A stretch of DNA of 44,888 nucleotides from Alphaproteobacteria bacterium (GCA_024280495.1 JAJRPZ010000022.1:1-44888), one strand, 5' to 3'; shown: positions 4,834 through 36,758, counted from the stretch's first letter. Numbers and translations: made by a program. The notes: generated by a model not told the origin, from the letters alone.

Positions 4834-5712
4834 TTAGGGCCATTTGACTTCTGGGGGCATGGACATAAGAATGCCCTCCACATTGCCACCTGTTTTAAGA
4901 CCAAACGTGGTGCCTCTATCATATAACAGATTAAATTCCACATAACGACCACGGCGTACAAGAAGATGCTCACGTTCTTCTTGGGTCCAGGAGGTCATCA
5001 TACGACGGCGAACAATTTCAGGGTAGGCATTCAAAAAAGCACGGCCCACATCCTTTGTAAAGTCAAAGTCATCTTGTTTATTTTTCGTATCGAGGTAATC
5101 ATAAAAAATACCACCAATACCGCGGGGTTCATTGCGATGTTTTAAGAAAAAATACTCGTCACACCACTTTTTAAATTTGGGGTAATACTTTGGATCATGG
5201 GCATTGCAGGCTTTTTCATAGGCCAAATGAAATGTTTTATTATCTTGCTCGTGGGGAAAATAAGGAGTGAGGTCTCCCCCGCCACCAAACCAACTTTTTT
5301 CAGCGGTCACAATATGACGCGTATTCATGTGCACGGCAGGTACATGAGGGTTTTTCATATGTGCCACAAGGGAAATACCACTGGCCCAAAAGGACGGATC
5401 ATTTTCTGTTCCTGGAATTTGTTTTTTAAACTCATGGGAAAACTCACCATGAACCGTTGAAATATTCACACCGATTTTTTCAAAAACATTACCCTTCATC
5501 AGGCCAATAACACCTCCGCCTCCTTCTGAGCGATTCCATGGTGTAAGCTCGAATGTTCCAGGAGTTGAAAGTCCTTTTGCGACAGCGTATTCTTCTTCGA
5601 TTTTCTCAAAAGAGTGCACAATTTGGTCTCGTAAATTTTCAAACCACGCCGACGCACTATCTTTAAAATCAATAATTTGTTTGCTTTCTTCTTTTTTTAA
5701 AAGAGCTGTCAT
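4834..5712 (-). CDS. hemF: Oxygen-dependent coproporphyrinogen III oxidase
   Basis: 292 aa with HemF signatures: [32 protein letters not shown], and the C-terminal SMPPEVKW. Confidence 0.93.
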
Positions 5713-11260: not shown

Positions 11261-11947
11261 TTATTTGATATTTAAAGGGCTTTTGATTTTCGAGTTTTTT
11301 GTGCCCACAGGCATTAACCTTTTTTGTGAAGAGGGGGTGATCGATAAATTTTTTATCTTGTTGGGGAGTTGATCTTGGATGGCATGTCCCGTTGTTATAC
11401 CAGAAATAACTCTTTCCATTGATCGTTTTATAATAGAGTTTTTTTCCACAATTTCAGTTTTTCTATTGTCCATAATAATTTTTATTTGCTTCTCTTTTAG
11501 CTCTTTAAGTGCAACTTTTTTTCTTTTTAAAATGGCCGTGTCATAATTTTTTTGAGCCAACAGAGCTTCTTCTCTGAGGTCATCAAAGGCCTCCGCTTTT
11601 GCTTGGTAAGCACTCTCTTGAGGTGTTGGGATGTATCGCATTGATTCAATATCAGGTGATATCTTTGTCACCCTCTTTGAGAAAAGTAGTTTTTGTTTTT
11701 CAGTAAAATTTCTTTTCTTTAAAGGGTAAATACTCATCAGCTCTTTGGCACGTTTTGGATCTGGCGTTGTATAACAATCAGGGGTACCAAGGGTTTTATA
11801 GCAATAAAGAGGTGGTTGTTGTTCTGAATCTTCGACAAAAACTTTTGCCCAACCCTCATCCAAAATTTCTTCTGCAGGACGATATCCCTTACCATGACAA
11901 CCTATGAGCACAAGTGTAACAAAAATAGTAATCAGAGATTTAAACAT
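11261..11947 (-). CDS. Hypothetical lipoprotein with a Lys/Glu-rich coiled-coil-like C-terminal half
   Basis: Signal peptide ending in the lipobox-like VLIGC. No recognisable catalytic motif. 228-aa ORF with no competing ORF. Confidence 0.55.
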   Translation of the reverse strand: MFKSLITIFVTLVLIGCHGKGYRPAEEILDEGWAKVFVEDSEQQPPLYCYKTLGTPDCYTTPDPKRAKELMSIYPLKKRNFTEKQKLLFSKRVTKISPDIESMRYIPTPQESAYQAKAEAFDDLREEALLAQKNYDTAILKRKKVALKELKEKQIKIIMDNRKTEIVEKNSIIKRSMERVISGITTGHAIQDQLPNKIKNLSITPSSQKRLMPVGTKNSKIKSPLNIK

Positions 11948-12386: not shown

Positions 12387-13535
12387 TTAATAAGAGTTAC
12401 CCTCTTTCAAAATTGTATCTAAAGAAACTTTTCCCTTGAGAACCCGATAAACCCATGCCGTATAAGCTAAAATTAACGGTAAAAAAATCAGTGTTGCGAT
12501 CAACATTATAAAGAGGGTGAGTTGGGAACTACTGGAATCCCATACAGTAAGGCTATGGCTGGGATTTGTACTGGAGGGCATCAAAAAGGGAAATAAGGAA
12601 CAACCCGCTGTTGTTATTACAAAAAAGGTTGTTAAAGAACTGGTTATAAAAGCCAACATAGATTTTCGTGCAGCTAATAAAAATGTTGTCATTAAGGACA
12701 TTAAGATCGCGACGCCTGGTACGGCAAAGGTTCTGGGATCATCCAAATGCCACTTTACCCAGGCCCCGACTTGGGGTTCAACAACTTTAGCAACTGGGTT
12801 AGAGGGCCCAGCGGTATTAAGTGCACTTACGATTTGATATCCATCGATAAAAACATACAAATACCAACCGCACAAGGCAAAAAGAATAGGAATTAAGACA
12901 CCGAGAAGCATTCCTGCACGTCGTGATCGTTTTTCAACTTTCCCTTCGGTTTTAAGGTAAAGAAATCCTGCCCCCTGCATTAACATCATCAATAATGCCA
13001 GAATGCCACACATCAATGGAAAGGGAGTGAGCAGGTCAAAAAAACCACCCGTATAGGTAGCGCGAAGGTCCTGATCAAAGGAGAAGGGTACCCCAAGAAA
13101 AAGATTACCAAATGCCACACCAAAAATAATAGCGGGTACGAGGCCACCGACAAAAAGACTCATATCCCAAAATTGACGCCAGGCAGGACTCGGCATTTTA
13201 CTGCGAAACTTAAACCCAACGGGGCGAATAATAATGGCAAAAAGCGCCAAGAAAATAGCGAAATAAAATCCTGAAAAAGAAATGGCATACAGAGGAGGCC
13301 AAGCTGCAAAAATAGCACCGCCACCAAGAACCAGCCATACTTGATTACCTTCCCAAACGGGACCAACGGTATTGAGAACAATGCGACGCTCTGCATCATT
13401 GCGCGCAACAAATGGTAAGAGTCCTGCAACTCCAAGGTCGAATCCATCCATAATGGCAAATCCAATGAGCAACACGCCTAATAGTGCCCACCAAACAACT
13501 CTTAAGATTTCATAGTCAATCATACCTGACTCCAT
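12387..13535 (-). CDS. cydB: Cytochrome bd ubiquinol oxidase subunit II
   Basis: 382-aa polytopic protein with a typical CydB start (DYEILRVVWWALLGVLLIGFAIMDGFDLG). Lies 20 nt downstream of cydA. Confidence 0.93.
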   Translation of the reverse strand: MESGMIDYEILRVVWWALLGVLLIGFAIMDGFDLGVAGLLPFVARNDAERRIVLNTVGPVWEGNQVWLVLGGGAIFAAWPPLYAISFSGFYFAIFLALFAIIIRPVGFKFRSKMPSPAWRQFWDMSLFVGGLVPAIIFGVAFGNLFLGVPFSFDQDLRATYTGGFFDLLTPFPLMCGILALLMMLMQGAGFLYLKTEGKVEKRSRRAGMLLGVLIPILFALCGWYLYVFIDGYQIVSALNTAGPSNPVAKVVEPQVGAWVKWHLDDPRTFAVPGVAILMSLMTTFLLAARKSMLAFITSSLTTFFVITTAGCSLFPFLMPSSTNPSHSLTVWDSSSSQLTLFIMLIATLIFLPLILAYTAWVYRVLKGKVSLDTILKEGNSY

Positions 13536-13555
13536 TTTTTAAATTTCAATATCGT

Positions 13556-15085
13556 TTATTGAGAAAGAGCTTTATCAGGGCCTAACTTAATATATTTTTT
13601 CATCAAGATCACATCCACTATCAATAGAACTGTATAAAAAACAATAAAGGCTATGAGGGTCGTCCAAACTTGACCGCTGGAAATTTCAGATCCACTGAGA
13701 AAAGTGGGTAAAATCTCATCAATGGTCCAAGGCTGTCTACCATGTTCAGCTAACAACCAACCACATTGAATGGCAATCCAAGGGAAAGGTAGACTTATAA
13801 TAGACATTTTTAGAAACCAGCGCTTTTCCTGGAAGATTTGACGGGATGAATAGTAAAAAGCCATGGCAAATAATAAAATCATATAGAGGCCGAGGCCAAC
13901 CATGATTCTAAAAGTCCAAAACAGTGTCGGTACATTTGGAACTGTGTAATCGGCTGCTTTTTGTACAATATCAGCACCAGCGTTTTCCACATCATCAGTA
14001 AAACGTTTTAAAAGAAGCCCATACCCAAGGTAAATTTCATTCTCATTCAACAGAGCTCTTGCATGTTTGTCCTGCGGATTTTGACGAACCCGTTGAAGAG
14101 CCCCATAGGCTTTTTGACCTTTGACGATTTTACCTTTTGCTTCCTCCACAAGATCCTTGATACCAGGAACCTTTGTGTTAAAAGTACGTGTAGCAATAAT
14201 ACCAAGGGCCCATGGAATACTAACTTCGTAATGGGTGATTTGTTTTTCCGTATCTGGAATACCAAAAATAGTAAGGCTCGCGGGGGCTTCATGTGTCTCC
14301 CACATAGCCTCCATAGCTGCTAACTTCATTTTTTGGCCATGGGACATGCTATAACCACTTTCATCTCCCAAAACCACGACGGATAAAGCGGATGCTAAGC
14401 CAAAGCTCGCAGCCACAACCATAGAGCGTTTTGCAAAGGCAACGTGGCGGCCCCGTAAAAGATAAAAAGCACTAATGGATAAAACAAACATTGCCCCTGT
14501 TACGTAACCCGCACTCACAGTATGGACGAATTTTGCTTGGGCTACAGGGTTAAATAAAATATCGTAAAAAGACGTCATTTCCATGCGCATAGTTTCAGGA
14601 TTAAATTTAGAACCCACTGGATTTTGCATCCATCCATTGGCGACTAAAATCCAAAGGGCAGAAAAATTAGACCCCAGAGCCACAAGCCAAGTGACCACCA
14701 AATGCGCTACCTTTGATAAACGATTCCAACCAAAGAAAAAAAGGCCAATAAATGTTGCTTCAAGAAAAAATGCCATAAGCCCTTCAATGGCCAATAATGA
14801 ACCAAAAATATCGCCAACATACTGAGAATAATAAGCCCAATTTGTACCAAATTGAAATTCTAGAGGAACGCCAGTACAAACGCCCATGGCAAAGTTAATA
14901 CCAAATAGAATACCCCAGAACTTTGTCATATCCCGCCAGATCACATTTCCAGTCATCACATAAACACTCTCCATAATGGCGAGCATAAAAGAAAGCCCCA
15001 AAGTTAAGGGCACAAACAGAAAGTGATACATGGCAGTCATGCCAAATTGAAGTCTGGATAAATCAAGGGAGCTGATATCAGTCAT
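13556..15085 (-). CDS. cydA: Cytochrome bd ubiquinol oxidase subunit I
   Basis: LSRLQFGMTAMYHFLFVPLTLG N-terminus, a Q-loop region, and the conserved GWLLAEHGRQPWTI motif. Confidence 0.95.
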   Translation of the reverse strand: MTDISSLDLSRLQFGMTAMYHFLFVPLTLGLSFMLAIMESVYVMTGNVIWRDMTKFWGILFGINFAMGVCTGVPLEFQFGTNWAYYSQYVGDIFGSLLAIEGLMAFFLEATFIGLFFFGWNRLSKVAHLVVTWLVALGSNFSALWILVANGWMQNPVGSKFNPETMRMEMTSFYDILFNPVAQAKFVHTVSAGYVTGAMFVLSISAFYLLRGRHVAFAKRSMVVAASFGLASALSVVVLGDESGYSMSHGQKMKLAAMEAMWETHEAPASLTIFGIPDTEKQITHYEVSIPWALGIIATRTFNTKVPGIKDLVEEAKGKIVKGQKAYGALQRVRQNPQDKHARALLNENEIYLGYGLLLKRFTDDVENAGADIVQKAADYTVPNVPTLFWTFRIMVGLGLYMILLFAMAFYYSSRQIFQEKRWFLKMSIISLPFPWIAIQCGWLLAEHGRQPWTIDEILPTFLSGSEISSGQVWTTLIAFIVFYTVLLIVDVILMKKYIKLGPDKALSQ

Positions 15086-15358: not shown

Positions 15359-16348
15359 TTAAACTGTCAATACATCTTCTTCTTTTAAATCAAGTTGGTC
15401 CAGAAATTCACGCCATTCACGCCCCCCCATGCCTTTATTATCTGGGTCAATTTTTTGACCAGAGATCAACTTTTTCACGAGTTTTGTGGCTGGTTCGCTG
15501 AGATGCATTGCATTTTTGCGATATTTCATGAAGGCATCATAGGAAAGGGGAACCCATTTCTTAACAAGCTCAAGCATAGTGTTTGCATATTCTTGAATTT
15601 CATATTGTGCGTGAGGATCTGCACGTAAACTGAGAAAATGCATAAGATTATGTAAATCAACTTTCCAATACCATTCTGTATAATAGTTCATTGTTAGATT
15701 CATACGTGCTAACTCGCGAGTTAATCCAGAACGAGATTCATCTAGAATTTTTTCATCTTCATCCTGATTCAGCATTTCCTTATAATGGTCATAACAGCGC
15801 TCTGAATCAGAACGCAAAATATCGAGAACGCGCTCAGATTCTTCTGGAGAAAGAACCCCATCACGACCTTGTTTGTTCAAAGTGGATTGCACGGCCAATT
15901 GCTCTGGCTTTGGAATATAAAATTCCTTTGAAAGAATAGAATAACGCGCAGAATATTCATTAACATTTGCTGTACGATGACGAATCCATTGACGAGCAAT
16001 AAAAATAGGGAGTTTCACGTGAAATTTAATTTCACACATCTCAAAAGGTGTCGTGTGACGATGGCGCATCAAATAATCAATAAGCCCTTTGTCTTTGCTT
16101 AATACTTTAGTACCTTTACCGTAGGAAACACGGGCAGATTGAGTGACTGCAGCATCATTCCCCATGTAATCAACGACCCTAACAAAACCTTTATCAAGAA
16201 CTGGAAACTGATCATACAAAACTGCATCTAATTCTTCGGACATGGCTCGACGGGTTTGGAAGATTTCATCCATATTGTCGCAAGATGCAGCATCGTTTTC
16301 TTTTTGAGGTAGAGTTGTTGTTTTATCCGTTATTTGAACAGTAGACAT
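15359..16348 (-). CDS. thyX: Flavin-dependent thymidylate synthase
   Basis: ThyX motif [14 protein letters not shown], and [20 protein letters not shown] as in rickettsial ThyX. The track's 16378 start is a TTG. The ATG at 16348 (MSTVQ...) has AAGGA 10 nt upstream. An ATG at 16243 would give 294 aa. Confidence 0.88.
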
Positions 16349-16538
16349 GGGATGGTTTCCTTTAACTTTGTACTTCAAAAATGTAGCACAAGAGGTAGAG
16401 CATTGGAAGATACCGTCAAGTCACAACTATGGAGTGATTCCAAGATATCCCAGACGTCCTCAATCCCTCCCGCGCCTATAAGTTTAGGCGTTGTTTCCTC
16501 TACCTAGACCGGAACATTCTTGGAAACAGCATAATCAA

Positions 16539-25158: not shown

Positions 25159-25215
25159 AAAACGTTCTTTGAAAAGCGTAATATAATAGTGGTAAACAAA
25201 AAAATAGGAAAAAAA

Positions 25216-25584
25216 ATGACTGAAACAATCTATGATAAACTAGGTGGGGCCCCTGCAATGGATGCAGCCGTTGATATTTTTTATCGAAAAGTTTTAAGTG
25301 ATGATCGCATCTCAGAATTTTTTGACGGCATAGATATGGACAAACAGCGCTCCAAGCAGAAAGCATTTTTAACAATGGCCTTTGGCGGTCCTAACAAGTA
25401 TACAGGACAAGATATGCGCGAGGGACACAAACACCTTGTTGCAAAAGGTCTGAACGACATGCATTTTGATGCCGTTGTTGAAAATCTAGCCACAACACTG
25501 TCGGAACTCGGTATCAGTGATGCCCTAATCTCAGAAGTGGCAGCAGTTGCTGAAACAACACGTAAAGACATTTTGAATCGTTAA
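25216..25584 (+). CDS. glbN: Group I (N-type) truncated haemoglobin
   Basis: MTETIYDKLGG, Phe-Tyr (B9-B10) in DIFYRKVL, FGGPNKYTG, and proximal His in REGHKHL. Aligns along its length with my recollection of M. tuberculosis trHbN. ATG at 25216 with AGGA 6 nt upstream; the track start at 25189 is a GTG. Confidence 0.88.
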   Translation: MTETIYDKLGGAPAMDAAVDIFYRKVLSDDRISEFFDGIDMDKQRSKQKAFLTMAFGGPNKYTGQDMREGHKHLVAKGLNDMHFDAVVENLATTLSELGISDALISEVAAVAETTRKDILNR

Positions 25585-25587
25585 TTT

Positions 25588-26622
25588 ATGACCAAAATAA
25601 CTTATAAAAATCAAAAACTCTCCTTGAAAGAGGATCAAACTGTTTTGAACGCCCTCCTTGAAGGAGGGTATTCTATTTCCCATGCTTGCGAACAAGGAGT
25701 GTGCCAGAGTTGTATCCTCAAAGCATCTCCTTCCAATGATTTGCCGAAAACGTCACAAATAGGATTAAAATCAACTCAACAAGAGCAAGGTTATTTTCTC
25801 AGCTGCCTTTGTAAACCAACCACCGATCTTGAAATAACAGACGCCGAGGATTTGGGAGTGAAATTTCAAGGAGAAATAATATCAACCCTAAAATTAACCC
25901 CTTCTGTTTATGCTCTACGATTAAAAATTGAGGGAGATTTTCCTTATAAAGCTGGTCAATATATAAATCTCATTAGACCCTCCGACCAAACCATCCGAAG
26001 CTATTCCCTTGCCAGCATTTATGATAAAAATTCTTACCAACAAAAATACACTGAAATTGAACTTCATATTAAAGCTTTCCCTGGAGGGGAAATGTCAAGT
26101 TGGTTATGCAGTGATATAAAAGCTCCAACACAAATTACTGGCCCCATGGGAGACTGCTTTTATAGTTCTTCTTTTAAAGGTAATGATCTTTTGCTCTTGG
26201 GTTGGGGAACGGGACTTGCCCCCCTTTACGGTATATTACAAGAAGCTCTTTCATCGGGACATAAGGGTAATATCCACCTTTACCATTGGGGAAATGAACC
26301 TGAAGACCTTTATTTTCAAAAAGAAATCAATATCATTACGGATCAAAATTCCCATGTTTTTTATAAAGCAGGCCTTCAGTGTGAAAATAAAATAAAAAAT
26401 CTAAAAAATTTAATGTTTGGTGATGCATGCGCCCTTATTCAAAAGGAAATTCCTTCCTTAAAGGATTGGAAAATTTTCTTGTGCGGTAGCGAAGCAAAAG
26501 TGAATAAAGCACGTCGTATTTTTTACCTTTCGGGGGCTGACCTTTCTGATATTTATGCAGATGCTTTTTTTACATGGCAAATTCCAGAATCAACCCCAAA
26601 AGAAGAAAAAATAACTGGCTAA
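25588..26622 (+). CDS. Ferredoxin-NAD(P)H reductase-type oxidoreductase: N-terminal plant-type 2Fe-2S ferredoxin domain plus FAD/NAD(P)-binding domain
   Basis: Cys pattern C-x4-C-x2-C...C (ACEQGVCQSC ... LSCLC), flavin motif IRSYSLAS (RxYS), nucleotide motif LLGWGTGLAP, and a C-terminal FLCGS motif. Its ATG lies 3 nt after the glbN stop. Confidence 0.85.
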   Translation: MTKITYKNQKLSLKEDQTVLNALLEGGYSISHACEQGVCQSCILKASPSNDLPKTSQIGLKSTQQEQGYFLSCLCKPTTDLEITDAEDLGVKFQGEIISTLKLTPSVYALRLKIEGDFPYKAGQYINLIRPSDQTIRSYSLASIYDKNSYQQKYTEIELHIKAFPGGEMSSWLCSDIKAPTQITGPMGDCFYSSSFKGNDLLLLGWGTGLAPLYGILQEALSSGHKGNIHLYHWGNEPEDLYFQKEINIITDQNSHVFYKAGLQCENKIKNLKNLMFGDACALIQKEIPSLKDWKIFLCGSEAKVNKARRIFYLSGADLSDIYADAFFTWQIPESTPKEEKITG

Positions 26623-27641: not shown

Positions 27642-28796
27642 ATGAGACTTCACTTAAGAACAATCATGACTTGTTTTTTTATCTCTGTATCCTTCTTGTT
27701 TTCTTTGTTAAATGAATTAAATGCCACCATTCAAGTTGATAATATCAAGGTTGATATTGAATCCACAAGTGGTCTCATGGCACGTAACCTCGCCATTGCA
27801 GAGGCCAGGCGCAAAGCTTTTCGACAAATCATAGAAACAACCCCGTCCCTTAATTATAATATAGATAAACGAGGAATGCCATCGGATGCAGCCCTTGAAA
27901 ATGCCATGGATACATTCGAAGTTGAGAAAGAAAAAATTCTTTCTAAACGGTATATTGGCACCCTTTCCATTACATTTTCAGATGTTGGCATGGACCACAT
28001 TTTTTCTGATAATGTTGGCCCCATAGCCCCCGCAAAAAAAATCTCGAATAAATCTGTAAAAATGAAGGTGGATTCTCCCTTTATCCGTGACGTTCTTTTT
28101 GTACCAGCATTCATCACGCCTGATGAATCTCTGTTATGGACCTCCAATATTTGGCGTACTTTTTGGCAACAAAATCAAAATAATGATGTTTTTAAAGTCC
28201 TCGTCCCCCTTGGCGATATTAAAGATATCATGTCGACCTCCATCGAAGATTTCATGACAGGGGATGCCCTAAAAGTGATGGCTTTGTTGAAACGTTACCA
28301 AAAAGATCAGTTGATTTTTGCTTCCCTCCGCCGTCTTTCATATGAGCATAATGAAATGGAATTGCGCGTTAAAATATTCAAGGAAAGTCGCCAAATTTTC
28401 TCAAGCCAACCTATTTTTATCAATGGCACAACAACAGAAGAAGCCTTCAAAGCAGCCTCCCTTGAAATTGGCCGTCTTGTTCAAGACATGGATTTTTCAA
28501 AAGCAAATATGCAAAACATGGCCCTTCAAACCATAGAATTAACGGCAACTTTTAAAGGTTTTGTTCAATGGCAAAAAATTCGTAATACATTGAAAATACC
28601 TGAAATTCATAAATTTAGAATTTCCAGACTTTCACGTAAATCTGCACAAATTAATATTAGAACAGCCTTATCAACAAAAGATCTTGCCAATGCCTTTGCT
28701 CGAAATGGCCTTAATTTTCAAGAAGGGTTTCCTGGAAAATTCAGCCTCTCTATTAATACAACAGAACTATATACCCCAAAGGGTTTTTCACAATGA
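27642..28796 (+). CDS. Hypothetical exported protein (384 aa, N-terminal signal sequence)
   Basis: Long ORF with a hydrophobic N-terminus (MTCFFISVSFLFSLLNELNA). No recognisable motifs. Its stop overlaps the start of the next gene (ATGA at 28793-28796). Confidence 0.6.
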   Translation: MRLHLRTIMTCFFISVSFLFSLLNELNATIQVDNIKVDIESTSGLMARNLAIAEARRKAFRQIIETTPSLNYNIDKRGMPSDAALENAMDTFEVEKEKILSKRYIGTLSITFSDVGMDHIFSDNVGPIAPAKKISNKSVKMKVDSPFIRDVLFVPAFITPDESLLWTSNIWRTFWQQNQNNDVFKVLVPLGDIKDIMSTSIEDFMTGDALKVMALLKRYQKDQLIFASLRRLSYEHNEMELRVKIFKESRQIFSSQPIFINGTTTEEAFKAASLEIGRLVQDMDFSKANMQNMALQTIELTATFKGFVQWQKIRNTLKIPEIHKFRISRLSRKSAQINIRTALSTKDLANAFARNGLNFQEGFPGKFSLSINTTELYTPKGFSQ

Positions 28797-31249: not shown

Positions 31250-32497
31250 CTAAGCGGTTAATGCCTGAATACCTGGTAATTTTCGACCTTCAATGTATTC
31301 AAGAAAAGCACCTCCCCCCGTTGATAGGTAAGTAAAATCATTTTCAACATGGGCAGATTTTAAAACAGAAATTGTTTCACCACCACCAGCAACACTCCGC
31401 AAATGGCCGTTTTTCGTAAATTTCGCCAAGGTTTGTGCTATTTGAATGCTGGCTTGATCAAAGGGTTTATGTTCAAAAAGCCCAACGGGTCCATTCCAAA
31501 TAACGGTTTTTGATTTCACCATAGCTTTACAAATTTCTTTAACGGTTTTGGGACCTATATCAAAAATACTTTTTGAGGGATGAATGTCTTTAACGGAGGT
31601 TGTTATCACCTCTGAAGAAGGTTCTAAATCCTTGGATACGTTGACATCCGTTGGTAAAATCAGTGTGCAATCATGCTCTTTTGCAAGGGCTATGATATTT
31701 TGTGCTGTTTGCACCTCTGAAGGTTCCGCAAGGGATTTTCCAAGATCGTACCCTTTTGCCAAAAGAAATGTATTGGCAATACCACCGCCAACTGCAACGG
31801 TATCAGTCATTGTTACGAGTTTCTTTAAAAGACCAATTTTTGAAGAAATTTTCGCTCCTCCAATAATTGCCATGAGAGGAACAGATTTTTTTTCAAAAAA
31901 ACCATTGAGGTTTTTAATTTCCGCATTCAGTAAAAGTCCAGAAAAAGCTGGTAAAAGCTTTGCAAGGCCGACAACAGATCCGTGGGCACGGTGGGACACT
32001 GAAAAAGCATCATTAATAAAAACCTCTCCTAATTCTGCCAGTGCTTTTGAAAAATTGAGATCATTTTTTTCTTCACCCTCATAAAAGCGGAGGTTTTCTA
32101 ATAAAAGAATTTCTCTATCCTTAAGATGGTTAACTTCTTTTTTAACCTCATCACCTAGAATATTTTCCTGAAAAAAAATGGGGTGAGATAATAAGTTAGA
32201 CAAAGGTTTCACAAGGGGCTTTAAACTCAACTCAAGATCAGATTTAAAAGAAGTGCCTTCAAGATTCGGGCGTCCTCGATGGGCTATTAAAATAATACGT
32301 GCTTTCTTTTCAATCAGATCTTTTAAGGTCGGTAAAATAGCCCGCAAGCGATTATCATCCAAAATAATTTTCCCCTTAAAGGGAGCGTTGAGATCCACAC
32401 GCAGGATCACTCTTTTATGGGCAACATCCGCCCCAGTATAAGTTGGAAGGGGGGGGGGATTTATGAGAGTTGTTGAGTTTTCGTTAAGCTTTGCCAA
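31250..32497 (-). CDS. pgk: Phosphoglycerate kinase
   Basis: KRVILRVDLNAPF, SHRAHGS, GGAKISSKIG, and WNGPVGLFE...GGGETI. TTG start with GGAG 8 nt upstream. Confidence 0.95.
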   Translation of the reverse strand: MAKLNENSTTLINPPPLPTYTGADVAHKRVILRVDLNAPFKGKIILDDNRLRAILPTLKDLIEKKARIILIAHRGRPNLEGTSFKSDLELSLKPLVKPLSNLLSHPIFFQENILGDEVKKEVNHLKDREILLLENLRFYEGEEKNDLNFSKALAELGEVFINDAFSVSHRAHGSVVGLAKLLPAFSGLLLNAEIKNLNGFFEKKSVPLMAIIGGAKISSKIGLLKKLVTMTDTVAVGGGIANTFLLAKGYDLGKSLAEPSEVQTAQNIIALAKEHDCTLILPTDVNVSKDLEPSSEVITTSVKDIHPSKSIFDIGPKTVKEICKAMVKSKTVIWNGPVGLFEHKPFDQASIQIAQTLAKFTKNGHLRSVAGGGETISVLKSAHVENDFTYLSTGGGAFLEYIEGRKLPGIQALTA

Positions 32498-32573
32498 CGT
32501 AAGATCTCCATGTTATGAAAGAAAAGGAAACCTCTAAAAAAGGCTTCAACAATAATATTGGATTTAGTTTAGC

Positions 32574-35500
32574 ATGGCAATTCTGGAACTTCAATTTGGG
32601 TTATCATTTTCTGATCTTCTATCACGTCCTGGACTTTTGAAAGTACAGAATGCCTTTGAGGTTTTTTTAAAGAATCAAGGGGGAAACTTATATAAAGAAT
32701 ATAAGTCAACACACAAAAAAGGACACCCTACGTCGGAATTTCTTTTGCAAATGGCTCCATATCTCGAAGATTTTATAGCAGATCTTTTCCAAATTCAAAC
32801 TGCCGTACAAAAACTGCAACAGAAAAATCTTTCCTATGCTCCCCTTGCGACAGCTAAACGTCAATTTATCCAACGGCGAGTTTCTAAAAAATTATCAAAA
32901 AATCCTGTGAATTATTCAGAAAATTCAGGTGAAAAATATCGCCAAAATCTTTCGATATTCTTGGGAAATGATTTCAACTTTTCAGATCTTGATTTTTCTA
33001 AAAATATCCTCAAATGGCTCCAAAACCCAAAAATAAATGAAAAAGCTCTCGACGCTGCCGAATCCTATGCCCTATGGATAATGTCTTCTTCCCATGGGCA
33101 AGATTTATATAAAAAATTTCACGGGTCTTCTCATTTTTTTGACCTGCCACAGCCCCTTGATTTTGATAATTTAATTGATAGTCACGTAAAAATAAAGCGT
33201 CAACGCCAAGGGTTTTCATTAACGGACAAAGGGTTATCACCTGAAAGTTCTCAAGGGCAATCTGCCTATTGCCTTCTTTGTCATGAGCGTAATAAGGACT
33301 CTTGTCGAACAGGGTTATATAATACTGAGAAAAAAATTCAGAAAAACCCCCTCGGCCGAGATCTTTCTGGTTGTCCTCTGGATCAGAAAATATCAGAAAT
33401 GATGTCTTTAAAACGACACGGTCTGACCATTGCAGCCCTTGCTGTTGTCACAATAGACAACCCACTTGTTGCTGCCACTGGACATCGAATTTGCAATGAT
33501 TGTAGTGCGGCCTGTCTCTTTCAAAGACAAGACCCTGTTGATGTTCCTGGTGTGGAAACAGAAATTCTTAGATCCGTCTTGGCCCTTCCTTGGGGCGTCG
33601 AAATTTATACTCTTCTCACCCTATGGAACCCCCTTCGCTTTGAGGCCCTTCTACCAAAACAAAAAACTATGTCTAAAGTATTAGTTGTTGGATTAGGGCC
33701 TGCTGGATTTACTCTTGCTTACTCCCTTGCCCAACAAGGCCATACAGTTATTGGAATTGATGGTACAAAAATTGAACCATTTCCTAAAGTGTTCAAAGAA
33801 AAACCTATCCATGATCTTAATCATTTTTTTGAGGATCTCGAAATACGTGTCATAGATGGTTTTGGAGGTGTTGCTGAATACGGTATCACGTCCAGGTGGG
33901 ACAAGAATTTTTTAAAACTTATTCGTCTCATTCTCGAGAGATCTCAAGAAATCCTCATCATGGGGGGGGTTCGTTTTGGAAGTTCTCTCACCCCCCAACA
34001 AGGAAAATATGACTATGGTTTTGATCATATAGCTCTTTGCAATGGTGCAGGACAACCCAATATTATTCCCCTTGAGAATATGCTTGTCAAAGGAGTAAGA
34101 CAAGCATCGGATTTTCTCATGGCCCTACAGCTCACGGGTGCCTACAAAAAAAAGGCCCTTGCAAACCTTGAGGTTAACCTCCCTATTATTGTCATTGGTG
34201 GGGGCCTAACCTCAATTGATACGGCAACGGAAGCCCTTGCCTATTATCCAGTTCAAGTTGAAAAATTCCTATCACAACTTGAAGAGTTAGATATCTCCAT
34301 AGATGATCTCAATTTCACAGAATCTGATTTTGAGAAGGCAACCCTTTGGGTGAAACACGCCAAAATATTACGTCAAGAACGCACAAAAAAGAGCCCCGAT
34401 TTTCAAAATCTTTTGCAATCTTGGGGAGGGGCAACTGTTTTATATCGGAAGGCATTGACAAAGGCACCAAGCTATCGCTTGAACGTCAAAGAAATAGAAA
34501 AAGCCCTTGAGGAGGGAATTAAAATAGCACCTTATATAACGCCTCAAAAAATTCAGGTGGATAAATATGGTGAGGCCTCTGGCGTTTTATGCACAGATTC
34601 AACGGGAAAAAAACATAATATCCATGCACGCAGCATATTCATGGCAACTGGTATTTTACCTAACACAACCCTTGCCAAAGAATATCCTCCAGTTTTTAAT
34701 ATGGATGGCATTCACTATAAACCCTCCAAATTGTCTCATTTTCTCATGGTAGACCCTTATTACAGTTTTTTTGGAGATCTTCACCCGACCTATAAAGGAA
34801 GTGTTGTTAAGGCCATCGCCAGCGCGAAAAAGGGCGCCCTTGAAATTGATTTATTATTAACTAGCACAAAACCTCGTAACGAAACAAAAGCCAAGGTTTT
34901 TTGGAAAAAATTCAGAGATGATTTTCAGGCTCATATTATTTCCGTTAAGCGTAAAAGTGACCATGAGGTTGAGCTTTTGGTTAAAGCTCCCATGGCAACA
35001 AAAAACCATAAACCAGGTCAGTTTTTTAGACTCCAAAATTTCACAACCTACGCTCCTGAAGTGAAAAATATCTCCCTGAGTATGGAGGGTCTTGCTCTAA
35101 CTGCCCACCATATTGACGCCGCAGCAGGAATCATTACATTCAAAATTGTTGAGCAAGGCGCGACGTCTCGAATTTGTGCCTTTTTAAAGCCAAATACTCC
35201 TGTTATTTTAATGGGACCTCTTGGTACTCCCACTTTCATCCCCCGAAAGGAAGAAATCTGTTTAATATCTCAATGGCCCTCTTATCCAGGGGTTTCTCTT
35301 CTAGTGAAAGCTTTAACAAAGGCCCCTAATAAAGTCATTGTTTTTGAGGGAAAAGAAATCAATGAACTGGAAGTGAATGACTTAAACCATTTTGATCGAT
35401 TTATGGTCTTTGGTAATGGAAAATTCATGGGACAGATCAATAAACTTCTAAAATCAAAAAAACTAAGACCTAAAAATAAAAAAATCGCAACGGTCAACAG

Positions 35501-35711
35501 TCCTATGCAATGCATGATGAAGGAAATTTGCGGTCAATGTTTACAGCGTCATGTACATCCAAAAACCGGTGTTGAAACTTATGTTTATAGCTGTATGACA
35601 CAAGAACAACCTTTATCCTCCCTAGATACTAACTTTCTTAAAAATAGACTCACTCAAAATAGTCTTCAAGAAAATATTACCAATGAAATTTTAAAAAAGT
35701 ATAGGCAATAG
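32574..35711 (+). CDS. Large fusion oxidoreductase: unknown N-terminal domain, then GltD/SudA-like Fe-S NAD(P)H/FAD module, then PyrK/SudB-like ferredoxin-reductase module with a C-terminal 2Fe-2S motif
   Basis: 1045 aa. Cys233-x2-Cys236-x7-Cys244...Gly-Cys267-Pro, and GHRIC307-x2-C310-x3-C314, resemble the two GltD Fe-S motifs. Two Rossmann motifs (VVGLGPAGF about aa 371, VIGGGLTSIDTA about aa 540) and a GD motif (FFGDL). The C-terminal part has PGQFFRL, MGPLGTP and C980-x5-C986-x2-C989-x17-C1007, as in PyrK. Confidence 0.8.
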   Translation: MAILELQFGLSFSDLLSRPGLLKVQNAFEVFLKNQGGNLYKEYKSTHKKGHPTSEFLLQMAPYLEDFIADLFQIQTAVQKLQQKNLSYAPLATAKRQFIQRRVSKKLSKNPVNYSENSGEKYRQNLSIFLGNDFNFSDLDFSKNILKWLQNPKINEKALDAAESYALWIMSSSHGQDLYKKFHGSSHFFDLPQPLDFDNLIDSHVKIKRQRQGFSLTDKGLSPESSQGQSAYCLLCHERNKDSCRTGLYNTEKKIQKNPLGRDLSGCPLDQKISEMMSLKRHGLTIAALAVVTIDNPLVAATGHRICNDCSAACLFQRQDPVDVPGVETEILRSVLALPWGVEIYTLLTLWNPLRFEALLPKQKTMSKVLVVGLGPAGFTLAYSLAQQGHTVIGIDGTKIEPFPKVFKEKPIHDLNHFFEDLEIRVIDGFGGVAEYGITSRWDKNFLKLIRLILERSQEILIMGGVRFGSSLTPQQGKYDYGFDHIALCNGAGQPNIIPLENMLVKGVRQASDFLMALQLTGAYKKKALANLEVNLPIIVIGGGLTSIDTATEALAYYPVQVEKFLSQLEELDISIDDLNFTESDFEKATLWVKHAKILRQERTKKSPDFQNLLQSWGGATVLYRKALTKAPSYRLNVKEIEKALEEGIKIAPYITPQKIQVDKYGEASGVLCTDSTGKKHNIHARSIFMATGILPNTTLAKEYPPVFNMDGIHYKPSKLSHFLMVDPYYSFFGDLHPTYKGSVVKAIASAKKGALEIDLLLTSTKPRNETKAKVFWKKFRDDFQAHIISVKRKSDHEVELLVKAPMATKNHKPGQFFRLQNFTTYAPEVKNISLSMEGLALTAHHIDAAAGIITFKIVEQGATSRICAFLKPNTPVILMGPLGTPTFIPRKEEICLISQWPSYPGVSLLVKALTKAPNKVIVFEGKEINELEVNDLNHFDRFMVFGNGKFMGQINKLLKSKKLRPKNKKIATVNSPMQCMMKEICGQCLQRHVHPKTGVETYVYSCMTQEQPLSSLDTNFLKNRLTQNSLQENITNEILKKYRQ

Positions 35712-35771
35712 CTTGGAAAACAGGCATGATAAATATTAAGATATAATTTAAGTATAACCCCTTTGGCATGA

Positions 35772-36758
35772 ATGATCCGTCAAATTTCACACTCTCTTTT
35801 TATTTTAATAGCTATAATTTTTTTCGCTCTAGGCTCAGGGTCGAATGCATCAGAGCCTGCACTTATCAAGAAAAATAACCTCAAAAAAGTTACTGTAGTC
35901 ATAACCCAGTTCGTTTCCCATGATGCATTGAACGCTGTTCGTGACGGCGCCGTTAATGCCATTGAAAATTGTGCAAAAAATGAATTTGATGTATCATTCG
36001 AATTTTCCAATGCTAGTGCCAACGCCCTTGTCGCACGTCAAATTGCCCAAAAACACGCGTCCCATAGGCCCGATGTAATTGTGGCTATTTCGACTCTTTC
36101 AGCCCAAAGCATCCTCAGTGCCGTTCGTGGTCATACTCCTATTGTGTTTGGTGCAATTACCGACCCAGAAGCAGCCCAAATTAAGGGCCAAAAGGTAACG
36201 GGGGTCACGGACATGCCCCCCTTTAATGACCAAATAAATTTTGTAAAACAAATTTTACCTCATGTGCGCACTATTGCAGTTTTATATAATCCCAGTGAAG
36301 ATAATTCGAGGGCAGCCCTTTTAGTGCTCCGAGGTGTATTTGAGAAACTCTCCCTTAACCTTTTACCCGTTGCAGTTACAAAAGCTGCAGAAATTAATCA
36401 AGCCGTCGCAAAAATCTCTGGGCAAGCTGACGCAATTTTCATTGCCAATGATAATTTAATTGCCAGCAGCTTTGAATCACTGGTCCGATCTGCCACAAAT
36501 AAGAACATTCCTGTTTTTGCTTCAGACGTTATGTTGGTAAAGCGCGGTGCACTTGGTATGAAAGGCATTGATTATTATCAAACAGGCCAACAAGTCGGCA
36601 TGCAAGTTTGTCAGATCTTGAACGGCACAGATCCAGGAGATATCCCAATGGCTATGCCCACTAATCTAAAAATTAACCTCAATGAAAAAACAGCACATAA
36701 TTTGGGGATTATTTTTACTCAAGACCTCATTCAATCAGCAGATGCTATTTATAAATAA
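35772..36758 (+). CDS. ABC transporter substrate-binding protein (ABC_sub_bind/BMP-like family), exported
   Basis: Signal peptide (LFILIAIIFFALGSGSNA), and periplasmic-binding-fold features (VAVLYNPSEDNS, IFIANDNLIASS, IPVFASD). No permease or ATPase gene lies adjacent. Confidence 0.72.
   Translation: MIRQISHSLFILIAIIFFALGSGSNASEPALIKKNNLKKVTVVITQFVSHDALNAVRDGAVNAIENCAKNEFDVSFEFSNASANALVARQIAQKHASHRPDVIVAISTLSAQSILSAVRGHTPIVFGAITDPEAAQIKGQKVTGVTDMPPFNDQINFVKQILPHVRTIAVLYNPSEDNSRAALLVLRGVFEKLSLNLLPVAVTKAAEINQAVAKISGQADAIFIANDNLIASSFESLVRSATNKNIPVFASDVMLVKRGALGMKGIDYYQTGQQVGMQVCQILNGTDPGDIPMAMPTNLKINLNEKTAHNLGIIFTQDLIQSADAIYK

What the first reader, a model, noticed from the sequence alone, without database searches (positions are those of the whole stretch)
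32574..35711. 1045-aa single-chain SudA/GltD-like and SudB/PyrK-like oxidoreductase with an unrecognisable 230-aa N-terminal domain
Residues about 230-760 look like the small subunit of glutamate synthase, or SudA/NfnB. They contain two Cys clusters (C233-x2-C236-x7-C244...GC267P, and C307-x2-C310-x3-C314), two Rossmann motifs and a GD motif.

Residues about 780-1010 look like PyrK/SudB/NfnA. They contain PGQFFRL, MGPLGTP and the terminal motif C-x5-C-x2-C-x17-C for a 2Fe-2S centre.

In the characterised systems (sulfide dehydrogenase SudAB, NfnAB transhydrogenase, PyrDK) these are two separate polypeptides. Here they are fused in the order B-like then A-like, behind about 230 residues with no motif I can place.

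The expected flavin-binding RxxS motif of the PyrK-like part is not obvious (the region reads SMEGLALTAHH).

The gene stands alone between pgk and an orphan binding protein, in a genome segment that otherwise indicates aerobic bd-oxidase respiration. Its substrate and electron partner are therefore open questions.
Basis: partly seen in the sequence, partly recalled or inferred. Interest (0 to 1): 0.7.

Follow-up and report, generated by a model that had tools for sequence, protein, structure and literature searches.

The report
Single-chain Nfn-like ferredoxin reductase (RP005 family)
This is a genuine 1045-residue iron-sulfur flavoprotein from a widespread, catalogued but never characterised family (Rickettsia RP005 / PRK06567), which most likely passes electrons from NADPH to a small ferredoxin; this copy has lost one of the family's two nucleotide-binding sites.

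Summary
It is not an assembly artefact: colinear full-length homologues occur in more than 1000 loci.

The architecture is not new. It matches NCBIfam NF005128/PRK06567 end to end (732 bits, below the 1072-bit equivalog cut-off). The N-terminal domain is Pfam PF27156 "RP005_N". A 2013 paper noted such chimeras in nearly every Rickettsiales genome. I found no functional study.

The N-terminal helical domain (residues 1-195) has no detectable relative in the PDB.

Gene context in 160 homologous loci gives the first functional lead:
- A 7Fe ferredoxin gene (fdxA) lies next to the gene in 15 loci.
- Sulfate-assimilation or siroheme sulfite-reductase genes without cysJ lie nearby in 14 loci, in several different arrangements.

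Best explanation: an NADPH:ferredoxin oxidoreductase built like a fused NfnB-NfnA.

The window's copy has lost the Gly-rich NAD motif and about 55 residues of the PyrK-like nucleotide subdomain, which is intact in 147 of 149 relatives. It therefore probably works like the non-bifurcating Xfn/NfnII.

It is a divergent member of a known but uncharacterised family, of moderate interest.

The parts
32574..35711 (+). Complete gene for a 1045-aa single-chain Nfn-like iron-sulfur flavoprotein (RP005 / PRK06567 family), stop codon included
   Evidence: ORF. Full-length match to NF005128, residues 6-1037 against model positions 3-1029 of 1031, E 1e-219. About 8000 homologues at 40-49% identity and 98-100% coverage. 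AF2 model with pLDDT 88.9 and pTM 0.90.
32574..33158 (+). Residues 1-195: all-helical N-terminal domain of ten helices (Pfam PF27156 RP005_N), function unknown; proposed docking or scaffold domain
   Evidence: Helices at residues 12-183 at pLDDT about 90, both in the full model and in the domain-only model. No PDB relative by Foldseek (best E = 7) or by profile (best E = 0.09). No local Pfam hit. PF27156 is listed in the precomputed annotations. Found only at the N-terminus of proteins with this architecture. It contains no conserved Cys or His cluster.
33159..33653 (+). Residues 196-360: NfnB/GltD-type Fe-S domain with seven invariant Cys (233, 236, 244, 267, 307, 310, 314) for two [4Fe-4S] clusters
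   Evidence: Invariant columns in A1. Weak Fer4_20 match at residues 265-329. Aligns to NfnI-L and Xfn as 'TG-RVC..C..C', and residues 207-241 align to the T. maritima NfnB N-terminus.
33654..34868 (+). Residues 361-765: FAD and NADPH-binding Rossmann core (GxGxxG at 373-378; GGG at 542-544; Y624-R625-K626; GD at 734-735) with a family-specific helical insertion of about 60 residues (about 556-617)
   Evidence: Pyr_redox_2 at residues 368-702. Foldseek hits to 5jfc_L, 5vj7_A and 4ylf_B with TM-score 0.79-0.80 normalised to the target. 'VtilYRk' aligns with 'VTIAYRR' of NADPH-binding NfnI-L and Xfn, and profile positions 558-627 have no counterpart in those chains. Helices 545-572, 583-603 and 610-616.
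34929..35228 (+). Residues 786-885: PyrK/NfnA-like flavin beta-barrel (PGQFFRL; EGLALT in place of ERIPLT; EQGATS)
   Evidence: The family profile matches 4ylf_A at 1.3e-17, 5jca_S at 1.6e-17 and 1ep3_B at 2e-9. The residue alignment shows the Thr kept and the Arg replaced by Gly.
35229..35489 (+). Residues 886-972: degenerate nucleotide-binding subdomain of the PyrK/NfnA-like module; the Gly-rich loop is lost ('ISQWPSYPGV' against the family 'VGGGLGNAV') and about 55 residues are deleted
   Evidence: Alignment. The region is 24% identical to other members, which share 52% with each other, and is 87 aa long against about 142. The motif is intact in 147 of 149 homologous loci, where the GPxG-to-MQCMMK segment is 151-171 aa against 98 aa here. 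It is still predicted as a small alpha/beta unit.
35490..35708 (+). Residues 973-1045: [2Fe-2S] site C980-x5-C986-x2-C989-x17-C1007 and a C-terminal helix
Evidence: All four Cys are invariant.
35772..36758 (+). Conserved downstream neighbour: a periplasmic PF04392/TrpX-like substrate-binding protein with no adjacent permease or ATPase gene. Membership of one functional unit with the target is not shown.
   Evidence: NF041285 at 220 bits, below its 390-bit cut-off. The same pgk, target and PF04392 order occurs in L161 and L162. The 60-bp gap contains no terminator-like site.

Best explanation
The gene encodes a divergent member of the RP005/PRK06567 family. This is a single polypeptide that joins an orphan helical domain, an NfnB/GltD-like module (FAD, an NADPH site and two [4Fe-4S] clusters) and an NfnA/PyrK-like module (flavin barrel and an all-Cys [2Fe-2S]).

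Proposed mechanism: NADPH reduces the FAD of the GltD-like core. Electrons leave one at a time through the two [4Fe-4S] clusters to a small soluble ferredoxin, FdxA-type where one is encoded alongside. That ferredoxin then serves ferredoxin-dependent enzymes, notably siroheme sulfite reductase in bacteria that lack CysJ. In other words, the protein would be an NADPH:ferredoxin oxidoreductase.

In most family members the NfnA-like module retains a dinucleotide site. In the window's protein that site has decayed, so this copy should behave like the non-bifurcating P. furiosus NfnII/Xfn, or like stand-alone NfnB-type ferredoxin:NADP+ oxidoreductases. Its [2Fe-2S]/flavin module would then be only a side relay, or an exit to an unknown acceptor.

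What is shown: the gene is real, its family membership, the domain homologies, conservation of the cofactor ligands, loss of the second nucleotide motif, and the gene-neighbourhood associations. What is inferred: NADPH specificity, ferredoxin as the acceptor, the direction of electron flow, and the role of the N-terminal domain (docking or scaffold).
For: Homology:
- Sequence profile and fold match NfnB/NfnI-L/Xfn and NfnA/PyrK.
- Seven plus four Cys ligands, both Rossmann motifs of the core and the 'YR[RK]' NADPH signature are conserved.
- The high-confidence compact model (pTM 0.90) supports one integrated enzyme.

Context in 160 homologous loci:
- fdxA (NF045490, 165-167 bits against a cut-off of 135) lies 5-134 bp upstream on the same strand in 12 loci and nearby in 3 more, in both Beta- and Alphaproteobacteria.
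- Sulfate-assimilation or siroheme-reductase genes lie nearby in 14 loci, in at least four different arrangements. These include cysI-cysH-cysD-cysN followed by the target with a 2-4 bp gap or an overlap, NIR_SIR followed by the target, and NIR_SIR followed by a siroheme-synthase module and then the target. None of the operons examined in detail (L059, L075) contains cysJ.
- L051 has fdxA on one side and cysH-DUF934-cysI on the other.
- pntAB, which generates NADPH, lies within about 4 kb in four loci from two lineages.

Precedents:
- CysJ-less alphaproteobacterial sulfite reductase works with Fd, an FNR and NADPH (PMC13188885).
- Many bacteria with cysI lack cysJ and have no identified NADPH-oxidising donor (10.1101/072470).
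- NfnII/Xfn with an occluded NAD site, and NfnB-type proteins alone, are NADPH-linked ferredoxin oxidoreductases (PMC12221290).

Loss of the second nucleotide motif in the window protein.
Against: - No experiment exists for any family member.
- The window contains no fdxA, cys gene or other obvious partner. Only 28 of 160 loci (17.5%) show either association.
- The independent metagenome sample gave only 2 cys-linked loci out of 80.
- Many linked loci come from a few related lineages, so the counts overstate the number of independent events.
- Rickettsiales endosymbionts keep the gene with no adjacent cys genes. I did not check their genomes for sulfate assimilation. Sulfite reduction is therefore unlikely to be the universal role.
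- The flavin-binding Arg of the PyrK-like barrel is Gly family-wide, so FAD occupancy of that module is uncertain.
- Strong conservation of the [2Fe-2S] site and of the N-terminal domain is not explained by a simple NfnB-type ferredoxin reductase.
- The conserved downstream binding-protein gene is also unexplained.
Confidence: 0.55

Rival explanations
1. It is a true electron-bifurcating Nfn in one chain. It would couple NADPH oxidation to simultaneous reduction of ferredoxin and NAD+, or run the reverse reaction, as NfnAB does.
For: The family norm has the complete Nfn cofactor set and both dinucleotide motifs, with GGG[LIVM]G intact in 147 of 149 loci. The best sequence and structure matches are NfnI, Xfn and NfnAB. 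Fused B-then-A Nfn homologues have been described (PMC6405883). The partner FdxA is, from my own knowledge, a low-potential ferredoxin that NADPH alone reduces poorly.
Against: In the window protein the NfnA-like Gly-rich loop is gone and the subdomain is cut to 87 aa at 24% identity, so NAD(H) cannot bind in the canonical way. The [2Fe-2S] is all-Cys and not Asp plus three Cys, and the flavin-motif Arg is Gly. Both changes lie in the branch that takes the high-potential electron in Nfn. P. furiosus NfnII shows that such changes abolish bifurcation.
Confidence: 0.1
2. It is the dedicated reductase subunit of assimilatory sulfite reductase, a non-homologous replacement for CysJ. It would dock directly on CysI, perhaps through the N-terminal domain, with no free ferredoxin intermediate.
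For: The gene is apparently translationally coupled to the end of cysI-cysH-cysD-cysN operons that lack cysJ, and lies directly after NIR_SIR reductase genes. The electron donor in cysJ-less bacteria is an open question. From my own knowledge, the PyrK-like AsrB serves the siroheme AsrC in Salmonella.
Against: Only 14 of 160 loci are cys-linked. The window has no cys genes. The family persists in Rickettsiales and Ehrlichia genomes, where no adjacent cys genes are seen in the one locus examined. The equally frequent fdxA linkage points to a soluble ferredoxin acceptor.
Confidence: 0.15
3. It has its own small-molecule substrate. Examples would be a polysulfide or sulfide dehydrogenase like SudAB, a quinone or prenylphenol-related reductase as the legacy name suggests, or another acceptor bound by the orphan N-terminal domain or at the decayed nucleotide site (the 'X' of an Xfn).
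For: The N-terminal domain is conserved, family-specific and of unknown function. P. furiosus NfnII is suspected to use an unknown third substrate. The legacy annotation is '2-polyprenylphenol hydroxylase'.
Against: The N-terminal domain has no conserved Cys or His or other catalytic-looking motif; its conserved positions are mostly hydrophobic. The 'UbiB/2-polyprenylphenol hydroxylase' label is, to my knowledge, inherited from an old COG name for PyrK-like domains and not from data. No ubiquinone or sulfur-oxidation genes recur nearby.
Confidence: 0.12
4. It is a glutamate synthase small subunit (GltD) fused to an extra reductase, serving a GltB large subunit.
For: Annotation names, and weak GltD family hits (TIGR01317 at 6e-16; 7mfm_I, 6s6s_E).
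Against: Scores are far below the GltD cut-offs (58 against 448 bits). No GltB-sized gene recurs next to it in 160 loci. Ehrlichia has the orthologue but lacks GOGAT (PMC4251998).
Confidence: 0.02
5. The long ORF is an artefact: two genes joined by a frameshift or an assembly error.
Against: Colinear full-length homologues of 1045-1190 aa exist in 597 of 600 genome-contig candidates and 588 of 600 metagenome-contig candidates, and about 8000 protein clusters match. The compact AF2 model has pTM 0.90. Base composition is uniform across the gene.
Confidence: 0.01

Closest known systems
[quoted passage not shown]
   Same: The architecture is the same end to end (residues 6-1037 against model positions 3-1029 of 1031), including the N-terminal domain, all Cys ligands and the domain order.
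   Different: The score of 732 bits is below the 1072-bit equivalog cut-off. The closest homologue is only 49% identical. The nucleotide subdomain of the PyrK-like module is decayed and about 55 aa shorter. I found no functional study of the family.
[quoted passage not shown]
   Same: The NfnB-like core has FAD, an NADPH site and a pattern of seven Cys for two [4Fe-4S] clusters. The NfnA-like module has a flavin barrel and a [2Fe-2S]. The target-normalised TM-score is 0.79-0.80.
   Different: - One chain, in B-then-A order.
- An extra 195-aa helical N-terminal domain.
- A helical insert of about 60 aa in the NADPH domain.
- An all-Cys [2Fe-2S], where NfnA uses Asp plus three Cys.
- The flavin-motif Arg is Gly.
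- No NAD-binding Gly motif in the window protein.
- About 18% identity.
- The hosts are aerobes.
Pyrococcus furiosus NfnII / Xfn (PDB 5vj7) and Cac_0764-type NfnB-like ferredoxin:NADP+ oxidoreductases
   Same: 5vj7_A is the best profile hit (1.1e-22). In Xfn the NfnA-type NAD(H) site is non-functional, and the enzyme is an NADPH-linked ferredoxin oxidoreductase that does not bifurcate.
   Different: In Xfn the site is occluded; here it has been lost by motif decay and deletion. Xfn is a two-subunit archaeal enzyme from an anaerobe. Cac_0764-type enzymes have no NfnA-like module and no N-terminal domain.
'Pattern C' fused Nfn homologues (Mobiluncus curtisii type; probably NCBIfam PRK12779, 944 aa)
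   Same: The fusion order is the same, with the a-FAD, NAD and [2Fe-2S] module at the C-terminus. They occur in Actinobacteria and Proteobacteria and are uncharacterised (PMC6405883).
   Different: The match to PRK12779 is weak and partial (E 1.5e-18, residues 619-931). Pattern C proteins are about 100-200 aa shorter. Whether they have the RP005_N domain was not tested.
CysJ (sulfite reductase flavoprotein) and ferredoxin/FNR-dependent sulfite reduction
   Same: In 14 of 160 loci the gene sits in or beside sulfate-assimilation operons. In the operons examined in detail (L059, L075) cysJ is absent, so the gene occupies the place of the electron-donor gene.
   Different: It is not homologous to CysJ: there are no flavodoxin or FAD_binding_1 domains. 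The window itself has no cys genes.

Membership tests
RP005 / PRK06567 (NF005128) family | Colinear full-length match to the family model | tested here: met
   Residues 6-1037 against model positions 3-1029 of 1031, E 1.1e-219, 732 bits.
RP005 / PRK06567 (NF005128) family | Score at or above NCBI's curated equivalog cut-off (1072 bits) | tested here: not met
   The score is 732 bits, below 1072. The protein is a divergent member of the wider family, not an equivalog by NCBI's own threshold.
RP005 / PRK06567 (NF005128) family | RP005_N domain (PF27156) followed by Pyr_redox_2 | tested here: met
   Precomputed Pfam annotations list PF27156 and PF07992 for the window protein and its homologues. 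The N-terminal domain aligns along its whole length, with invariant G20, F72 and F98. PF27156 is absent from the local Pfam copy, so I could not rescore it.
RP005 / PRK06567 (NF005128) family | Intact Gly-rich nucleotide motif and a subdomain of about 142 aa in the PyrK-like module (the family norm) | tested here: not met
   The window has 'ISQWPSYPGV' and 87 aa. The motif is intact in 147 of 149 loci.
NfnAB (bifurcating NfnI type) | NfnB-like subunit: FAD, an NADPH site and ligands for two [4Fe-4S] clusters | tested here: met
   Target-normalised TM-score 0.79-0.80 to 5jfc_L and 4ylf_B. Seven invariant Cys, both Rossmann motifs and YR[RK].
NfnAB (bifurcating NfnI type) | NfnA-like subunit with a functional NAD(H) site | tested here: not met
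   The Gly-rich loop is lost and the subdomain truncated.
NfnAB (bifurcating NfnI type) | [2Fe-2S] ligated by Asp plus three Cys, and the flavin motif ERIPLT | tested here: not met
   C980 replaces the Asp, and EGLALT replaces ERIPLT.
NfnAB (bifurcating NfnI type) | Two subunits encoded as nfnA followed by nfnB | tested here: not met
   Single chain, in B-like then A-like order.
NfnAB (bifurcating NfnI type) | NAD+-dependent NADPH:ferredoxin oxidoreductase (bifurcating) activity | not testable with these tools
   Requires an enzyme assay.
Non-bifurcating NfnB-type ferredoxin:NADP+ oxidoreductase (Xfn/NfnII, Cac_0764 type) | NADPH-linked ferredoxin reduction or oxidation without NAD(H) coupling | not testable with these tools
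   Inferred from loss of the NAD motif, fdxA adjacency in homologues and the precedent in PMC12221290.
Glutamate synthase small subunit (GltD) | Score above the GltD model cut-offs, and a gltB partner gene | tested here: not met
   TIGR01317 scores 58 bits against a cut-off of 448. No GltB-like neighbour recurs in 160 loci. Ehrlichia has the orthologue but no GOGAT. Only 44 kb of the window genome is visible.
CysJ (sulfite reductase flavoprotein) | Diflavin architecture (flavodoxin-like FMN domain plus an FNR-like FAD/NADPH domain) | tested here: not met
   No such Pfam or NCBIfam hits. At most a functional analogue.
PyrK (electron-transfer subunit of DHOD B) | FNR-like FAD/NAD module with a C-terminal four-Cys [2Fe-2S], paired with PyrD | tested here: inconclusive
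   The fold and the four-Cys site are present (1ep3_B at 2e-9). No pyrD neighbour is present, the NAD motif is lost, and the Arg of the flavin motif is missing.

The most novel reading that the evidence does not exclude
The RP005 family would be the long-missing NADPH-driven source of low-potential electrons in aerobic Proteobacteria, Acidobacteria, Planctomycetes and Rickettsiales. It would be a single-chain Nfn running in the ferredoxin-reducing direction (2 NADPH + NAD+ + 2 FdxA(ox) giving 2 NADP+ + NADH + 2 FdxA(red)). It would reduce the 7Fe ferredoxin FdxA and so power CysJ-less sulfite reductase and other ferredoxin-dependent enzymes, with the orphan RP005_N domain as the docking platform. 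The window's endosymbiont-type copy would be a natural 'uncoupled' variant that has discarded the NAD+ branch.
Probability: 0.2. Interest if true: 0.75.

Novelty: new member of a known kind. Interest (0 to 1): 0.45.

Why it matters
The family occurs in well over a thousand species, most of them aerobes. According to a 2013 survey it is kept in nearly every Rickettsiales genome, including very reduced ones. It is catalogued by NCBIfam and Pfam, yet I found no experiment on it.

The neighbourhood analysis done here gives it a concrete, testable role as the NADPH-oxidising partner of FdxA-type ferredoxin. Through that ferredoxin it would supply sulfite reductase in the many bacteria that have cysI but no cysJ. 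The NADPH-oxidising donor there is still unidentified; the only published proposal I found is the small protein DUF2849.

If members with both nucleotide motifs intact prove to bifurcate electrons, flavin-based bifurcation of the Nfn type would extend into ordinary aerobic metabolism.

The window's copy has lost the second nucleotide site, so it is a natural experiment on which half of the enzyme is indispensable.

Tried and rejected
- **Frameshift or assembly artefact:** rejected, because the architecture is colinear in more than 1000 loci.
- **Relatives of the N-terminal domain:** none found. I tried Foldseek of a domain-only AF2 model against the PDB (best E = 7), a profile HMM against PDB sequences (best E = 0.09, a heparosan synthase, treated as noise), the local Pfam copy on 20 members (no consistent hit) and a Pfam scan of the window fragment (ABC_N at E 0.027, treated as noise).
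- **Exhaustive phmmer with the N-terminal domain** against 1.84 billion representatives: the short hits looked like stand-alone domains. Inspection showed contig-truncated fragments and mis-called starts in high-GC DNA, so there is no evidence for other architectures.
- **A script error of mine:** the first motif survey anchored on the wrong 'GPxG' in the first Rossmann fold and wrongly called 46 loci degenerate. I corrected it and one search should be ignored.
- **Literature searches** for PRK06567, RP005, PF27156, fused or aerobic Nfn, FdxA reductases and CysJ-less sulfite reduction found only mentions at annotation level.
- **PDB 9n5u 'NfnA'** is the unrelated NfnABC/Bfu class.
- **Other recurrent neighbours** are confined to single lineages and were treated as inherited synteny, not functional linkage. 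They are a Liv-type ABC transporter, an SDR, a gamma-carbonic-anhydrase-like protein, Ate, CtaA and DadA.
- **Promoter and terminator scan** around the gene was uninformative.
- **Not possible with the tools:**
  - I could not read the model coordinates, so Fe-S ligand geometry and the packing of the N-terminal domain were not examined.

Full report
**1.
The window has an uninterrupted ORF at 32574..35711 on the + strand, 1045 aa with an ATG start. Its first residues (MAILELQFG) match the conserved family N-terminus MxxxLxLxFG. Base composition across the gene is like that of its surroundings.

- C233, C236, C244 and C267-P; C307, C310 and C314.
- G373xG375xxG378 and G542-G-G544.
- G734-D735.
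- PGQFFRL (814-820) and MGPLG (880-884).
- C980-x5-C986-x2-C989-x17-C1007.

The neighbours are as described. pgk lies on the opposite strand upstream and a signal-peptide binding protein 60 bp downstream. The window also holds cydAB, hemF, thyX, motAB and other housekeeping genes of a small alphaproteobacterial genome. The closest homologue that carries a source name is from a Holosporales bacterium.

**2. It is not an artefact.**
About 8000 database proteins match over 98-100% of the length at 40-49% identity. Two independent DNA scans found colinear full-length genes in 597 of 600 genome-contig candidates and 588 of 600 metagenome-contig candidates. An AlphaFold2 model of the whole chain is compact and confident, with mean pLDDT 88.9 and pTM 0.90.

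**3. Anatomy.**

*Residues 1-195.* These form a bundle of ten helices, predicted at pLDDT about 90 both in context and alone.

*Residues about 207-360.* This is the canonical NfnB/GltD Fe-S domain. The stretch 'RQRQGFSLTDKGLSPESSQGQSAYC' aligns with the N-terminus of T. maritima NfnB, and 'TGHRICNDCSAAC' aligns with 'TG-RVC..C..C' of NfnI-L and Xfn.

*Residues 361-765.* This is the FAD and NADPH Rossmann core.
- Pfam Pyr_redox_2 matches it.
- Foldseek gives a target-normalised TM-score of 0.79-0.80 to 5jfc_L, 5vj7_A and 4ylf_B, and 0.71-0.76 to GltD.
- 'LYRK' aligns with 'AYRR' of the NADPH-binding Nfn large subunit.
- A helical insert of about 60 residues (about 556-617) has no counterpart in Nfn.

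*Residues 786-1045.* These match the Nfn small subunit (4ylf_A at 1.3e-17, 5jca_S at 1.6e-17) and PyrK (2e-9) when searched with the family profile.
NfnA 'E-R-I-P-L-T' aligns with 'E-G-L-A-L-T', so the Thr is kept and the Arg is Gly throughout the family.
- C980 occupies the position of the Asp ligand of the Nfn [2Fe-2S], so this cluster has four Cys ligands.

**4.
After MGPLGTP, the family has the dinucleotide loop 'LLVGGGLGNAVLFSIG', which aligns with 'LLVGGGVGIATLYPIA' of NfnA. The window protein reads 'CLISQWPSYPGVSLLV' and lacks about 55 residues further on.

Per-domain identity shows the decay is local:

| Region | Window vs other members | Other members vs each other |
|---|---|---|
| PyrK-like nucleotide subdomain | 24% | 52% |
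| All other domains | ratio about 0.73-0.88 of the family value | |

The subdomain is 87 aa here against about 142 aa in the family. Across 149 evaluable homologous loci the motif is intact in 147. The GPxG-to-MQCMMK segment is 151-171 aa in those loci and 98 aa here. An earlier version of this script was wrong and is superseded. Degenerate motifs occur only in the window protein and in some of its nearer relatives, several from Holosporales- or Caedibacter-type genomes: P0011, P0015, P0022, P0032 and P0086, and L040/L118.

**5. The architecture is already catalogued.**
[quoted passage not shown] The E-value is 1e-219 and the score 732 bits, below the 1072-bit equivalog cut-off.
- The precomputed Pfam annotations give PF27156, named RP005_N after Rickettsia prowazekii RP005, plus PF07992.
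- Driscoll et al. [quoted passage not shown]
- The Ehrlichia orthologue ECH_0778 has been cited as a glutamine-converting enzyme purely on its name (PMC4251998).
- Liang et al. 2019 described uncharacterised 'Pattern C' Nfn fusions with the NfnA-like part at the C-terminus (PMC6405883).

I found no functional study of the family.

**6. The N-terminal domain remains an orphan.**
- Foldseek of the domain-only model against the PDB gives nothing (best E = 7).
- A 20-sequence profile against PDB sequences gives nothing credible (best E = 0.09).
- The local Pfam copy gives no consistent hit.
- An exhaustive phmmer against 1.84 billion representative proteins found 398 hits at E ≤ 1e-3. All are at the N-terminus of proteins of about 1000-1170 aa, or are truncated or mis-started fragments of them.
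- Its conserved positions are mainly hydrophobic, with a few charged residues (D14, K95, R96, R101) and no Cys or His cluster.

This fits a structural or docking role better than a catalytic one. That reading is an inference.

**7. Gene context gives the functional lead.**
In the window, and in a genuine Rickettsiales endosymbiont, the gene sits among unrelated housekeeping genes. The window contains no fdxA or cys gene. Across 160 homologous loci two associations recur.

*(a) A 7Fe ferredoxin.* It is confirmed as FdxA by NF045490, with scores of 165-167 bits against a cut-off of 135.
- It lies 5-134 bp upstream on the same strand in 12 loci, and nearby in 3 more.
- The loci come from Burkholderiales and other Betaproteobacteria and from Caulobacteraceae-type Alphaproteobacteria.

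*(b) Sulfate-assimilation genes.* They lie within 8 kb in 14 loci: 12 of 80 genome loci and 2 of 80 metagenome loci. The arrangements differ:
- cysI-(siroheme synthase)-cysH-cysD-cysN(C) followed by the target, with a 2-4 bp gap or an overlap, in Rickettsiales-like MAGs.
- The same order downstream of a LysR-family regulator gene, and followed by pntAB, in Nitrosomonadaceae, including the cultured Nitrosovibrio tenuis.
- A NIR_SIR reductase gene directly upstream (L033).
- A NIR_SIR reductase gene and then a siroheme-synthase module upstream (L043, L138).
- cysH upstream (L036).
- fdxA, then the target, then cysH-DUF934-cysI on the opposite strand (L051).

The two operons I examined gene by gene (L059 and L075) contain no cysJ.

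By a rough estimate of mine, chance adjacency to any one specific gene cluster would be well below 1% per locus, against about 9% observed for each association. Many of the linked loci are phylogenetically related, though, so the number of independent events is nearer two for fdxA and five or six for the cys genes.

**8. Mechanism.**
All characterised relatives of the core (NfnB, GltD, PreT/DPD, SudA) take a hydride from NAD(P)H onto FAD and pass single electrons through two [4Fe-4S] clusters to a partner; this is from my own knowledge of those families. Published work adds three points:
- NfnB alone, and Cac_0764-type NfnB homologues, are NADPH:ferredoxin oxidoreductases.
- P. furiosus NfnII/Xfn, whose NfnA-type NAD(H) site is occluded, cannot bifurcate but has NADPH-linked ferredoxin oxidoreductase activity (PMC12221290). 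Its large subunit, 5vj7_A, is the best profile hit of this family.
- CysJ-less alphaproteobacterial sulfite reductase has been run in vitro with ferredoxin, an FNR and NADPH (PMC13188885). Fitness data show that many bacteria with cysI lack cysJ, and no NADPH-oxidising donor has been identified for them (10.1101/072470).

Putting these together, the best-supported reading is as follows. The family is an NADPH:ferredoxin (FdxA-type) oxidoreductase that feeds ferredoxin-dependent enzymes, with sulfite reductase as a prominent client. The window protein, lacking the second dinucleotide site, is an Xfn-like non-bifurcating version.

Several things remain unexplained: why the [2Fe-2S] site and the N-terminal domain are so well conserved, whether the PyrK-like barrel still binds FAD without its Arg, and why a PF04392 binding-protein gene stays next to the gene in this clade.

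**9. Rivals.**
- *A genuine bifurcating single-chain Nfn.* This is plausible for the intact-motif majority of the family but unlikely for this protein.
- *A direct CysJ-like partner of CysI.* This fits the cys-linked loci but not the fdxA-linked ones or the window.
- *An enzyme with its own small-molecule acceptor.* This cannot be excluded.
- *GltD.* The scores are too low (58 against 448 bits), no GltB-like neighbour recurs, and Ehrlichia has the protein without GOGAT.

**10. Verdict.**
The protein is a divergent member of a known, catalogued, but experimentally uncharacterised family. It is not a new architecture.

Two things are new here: the lineage-specific loss of the second nucleotide site, and a context-based functional hypothesis for the family. 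Interest is moderate. It rests on the size and conservation of an unstudied family, and on its possible link to two open questions: the electron donor of CysJ-less sulfite reductase, and how FdxA is reduced in aerobes.

Noticed in passing
window 25189-26622 (+): A truncated-haemoglobin gene (Bac_globin, 131 aa) is followed 4 bp later by a 344-aa Fer2 + FAD_binding_6 + NAD_binding_1 reductase gene. The pair looks like a two-gene globin and dedicated-reductase unit.
   Followed up: no
window 31250-36758; L161 5743-11302; L162 5735-11369: The order pgk (opposite strand), RP005-family gene, PF04392 periplasmic binding-protein gene is conserved in relatives only 45-49% identical. In all three cases no permease or ATPase gene follows the binding-protein gene. 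The 'orphan' binding protein is thus a conserved neighbour, for an unknown reason.
   Followed up: partly
L013, L037, L049, L058, L064, L066, L072, L088 and others (21 loci): In many Betaproteobacteria a Liv/urea-type binding protein (Peripla_BP_6), with its fused permease and ATPase genes, lies directly beside the RP005-family gene. It is either downstream on the same strand or upstream on the opposite strand. This is a second, unrelated binding-protein family next to the same gene.
   Followed up: partly
L059 11700-14697; L079; L103; L162 1-2934: pntA/pntB, the proton-translocating NAD(P) transhydrogenase that supplies NADPH, lies just downstream of the gene in Nitrosomonadaceae and within about 4 kb in a Holosporales-like genome.
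   Followed up: partly
L075 3193-3633 (+): A 146-aa ORF between cysI and the siroheme-synthase module of a Rickettsiales-like cys operon has no Pfam or NCBIfam match. It sits where DUF934 sits in other cys clusters, such as L051.
   Followed up: no
window residues about 556-617 of the protein (nt about 34239-34424): There is a family-specific helical insertion of about 60 residues between the first and second strands of the NADPH-binding Rossmann fold. It is absent from NfnB, Xfn and GltD, and profile positions 558-627 are unaligned to those chains.
   Followed up: partly
window 11261-11947 (-) and 27642-28796 (+): A 227-aa ORF next to alr has no Pfam match at E ≤ 1e-6. A 384-aa protein carries only a partial DUF2066 match.
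   Followed up: no
window 4834-5712, 12387-15085, 15359-16378 (all -): The oxygen-dependent coproporphyrinogen oxidase HemF, cytochrome bd oxidase CydAB and the flavin-dependent thymidylate synthase ThyX are all present. This fits an aerobic or microaerobic, genome-reduced alphaproteobacterium.
   Followed up: no
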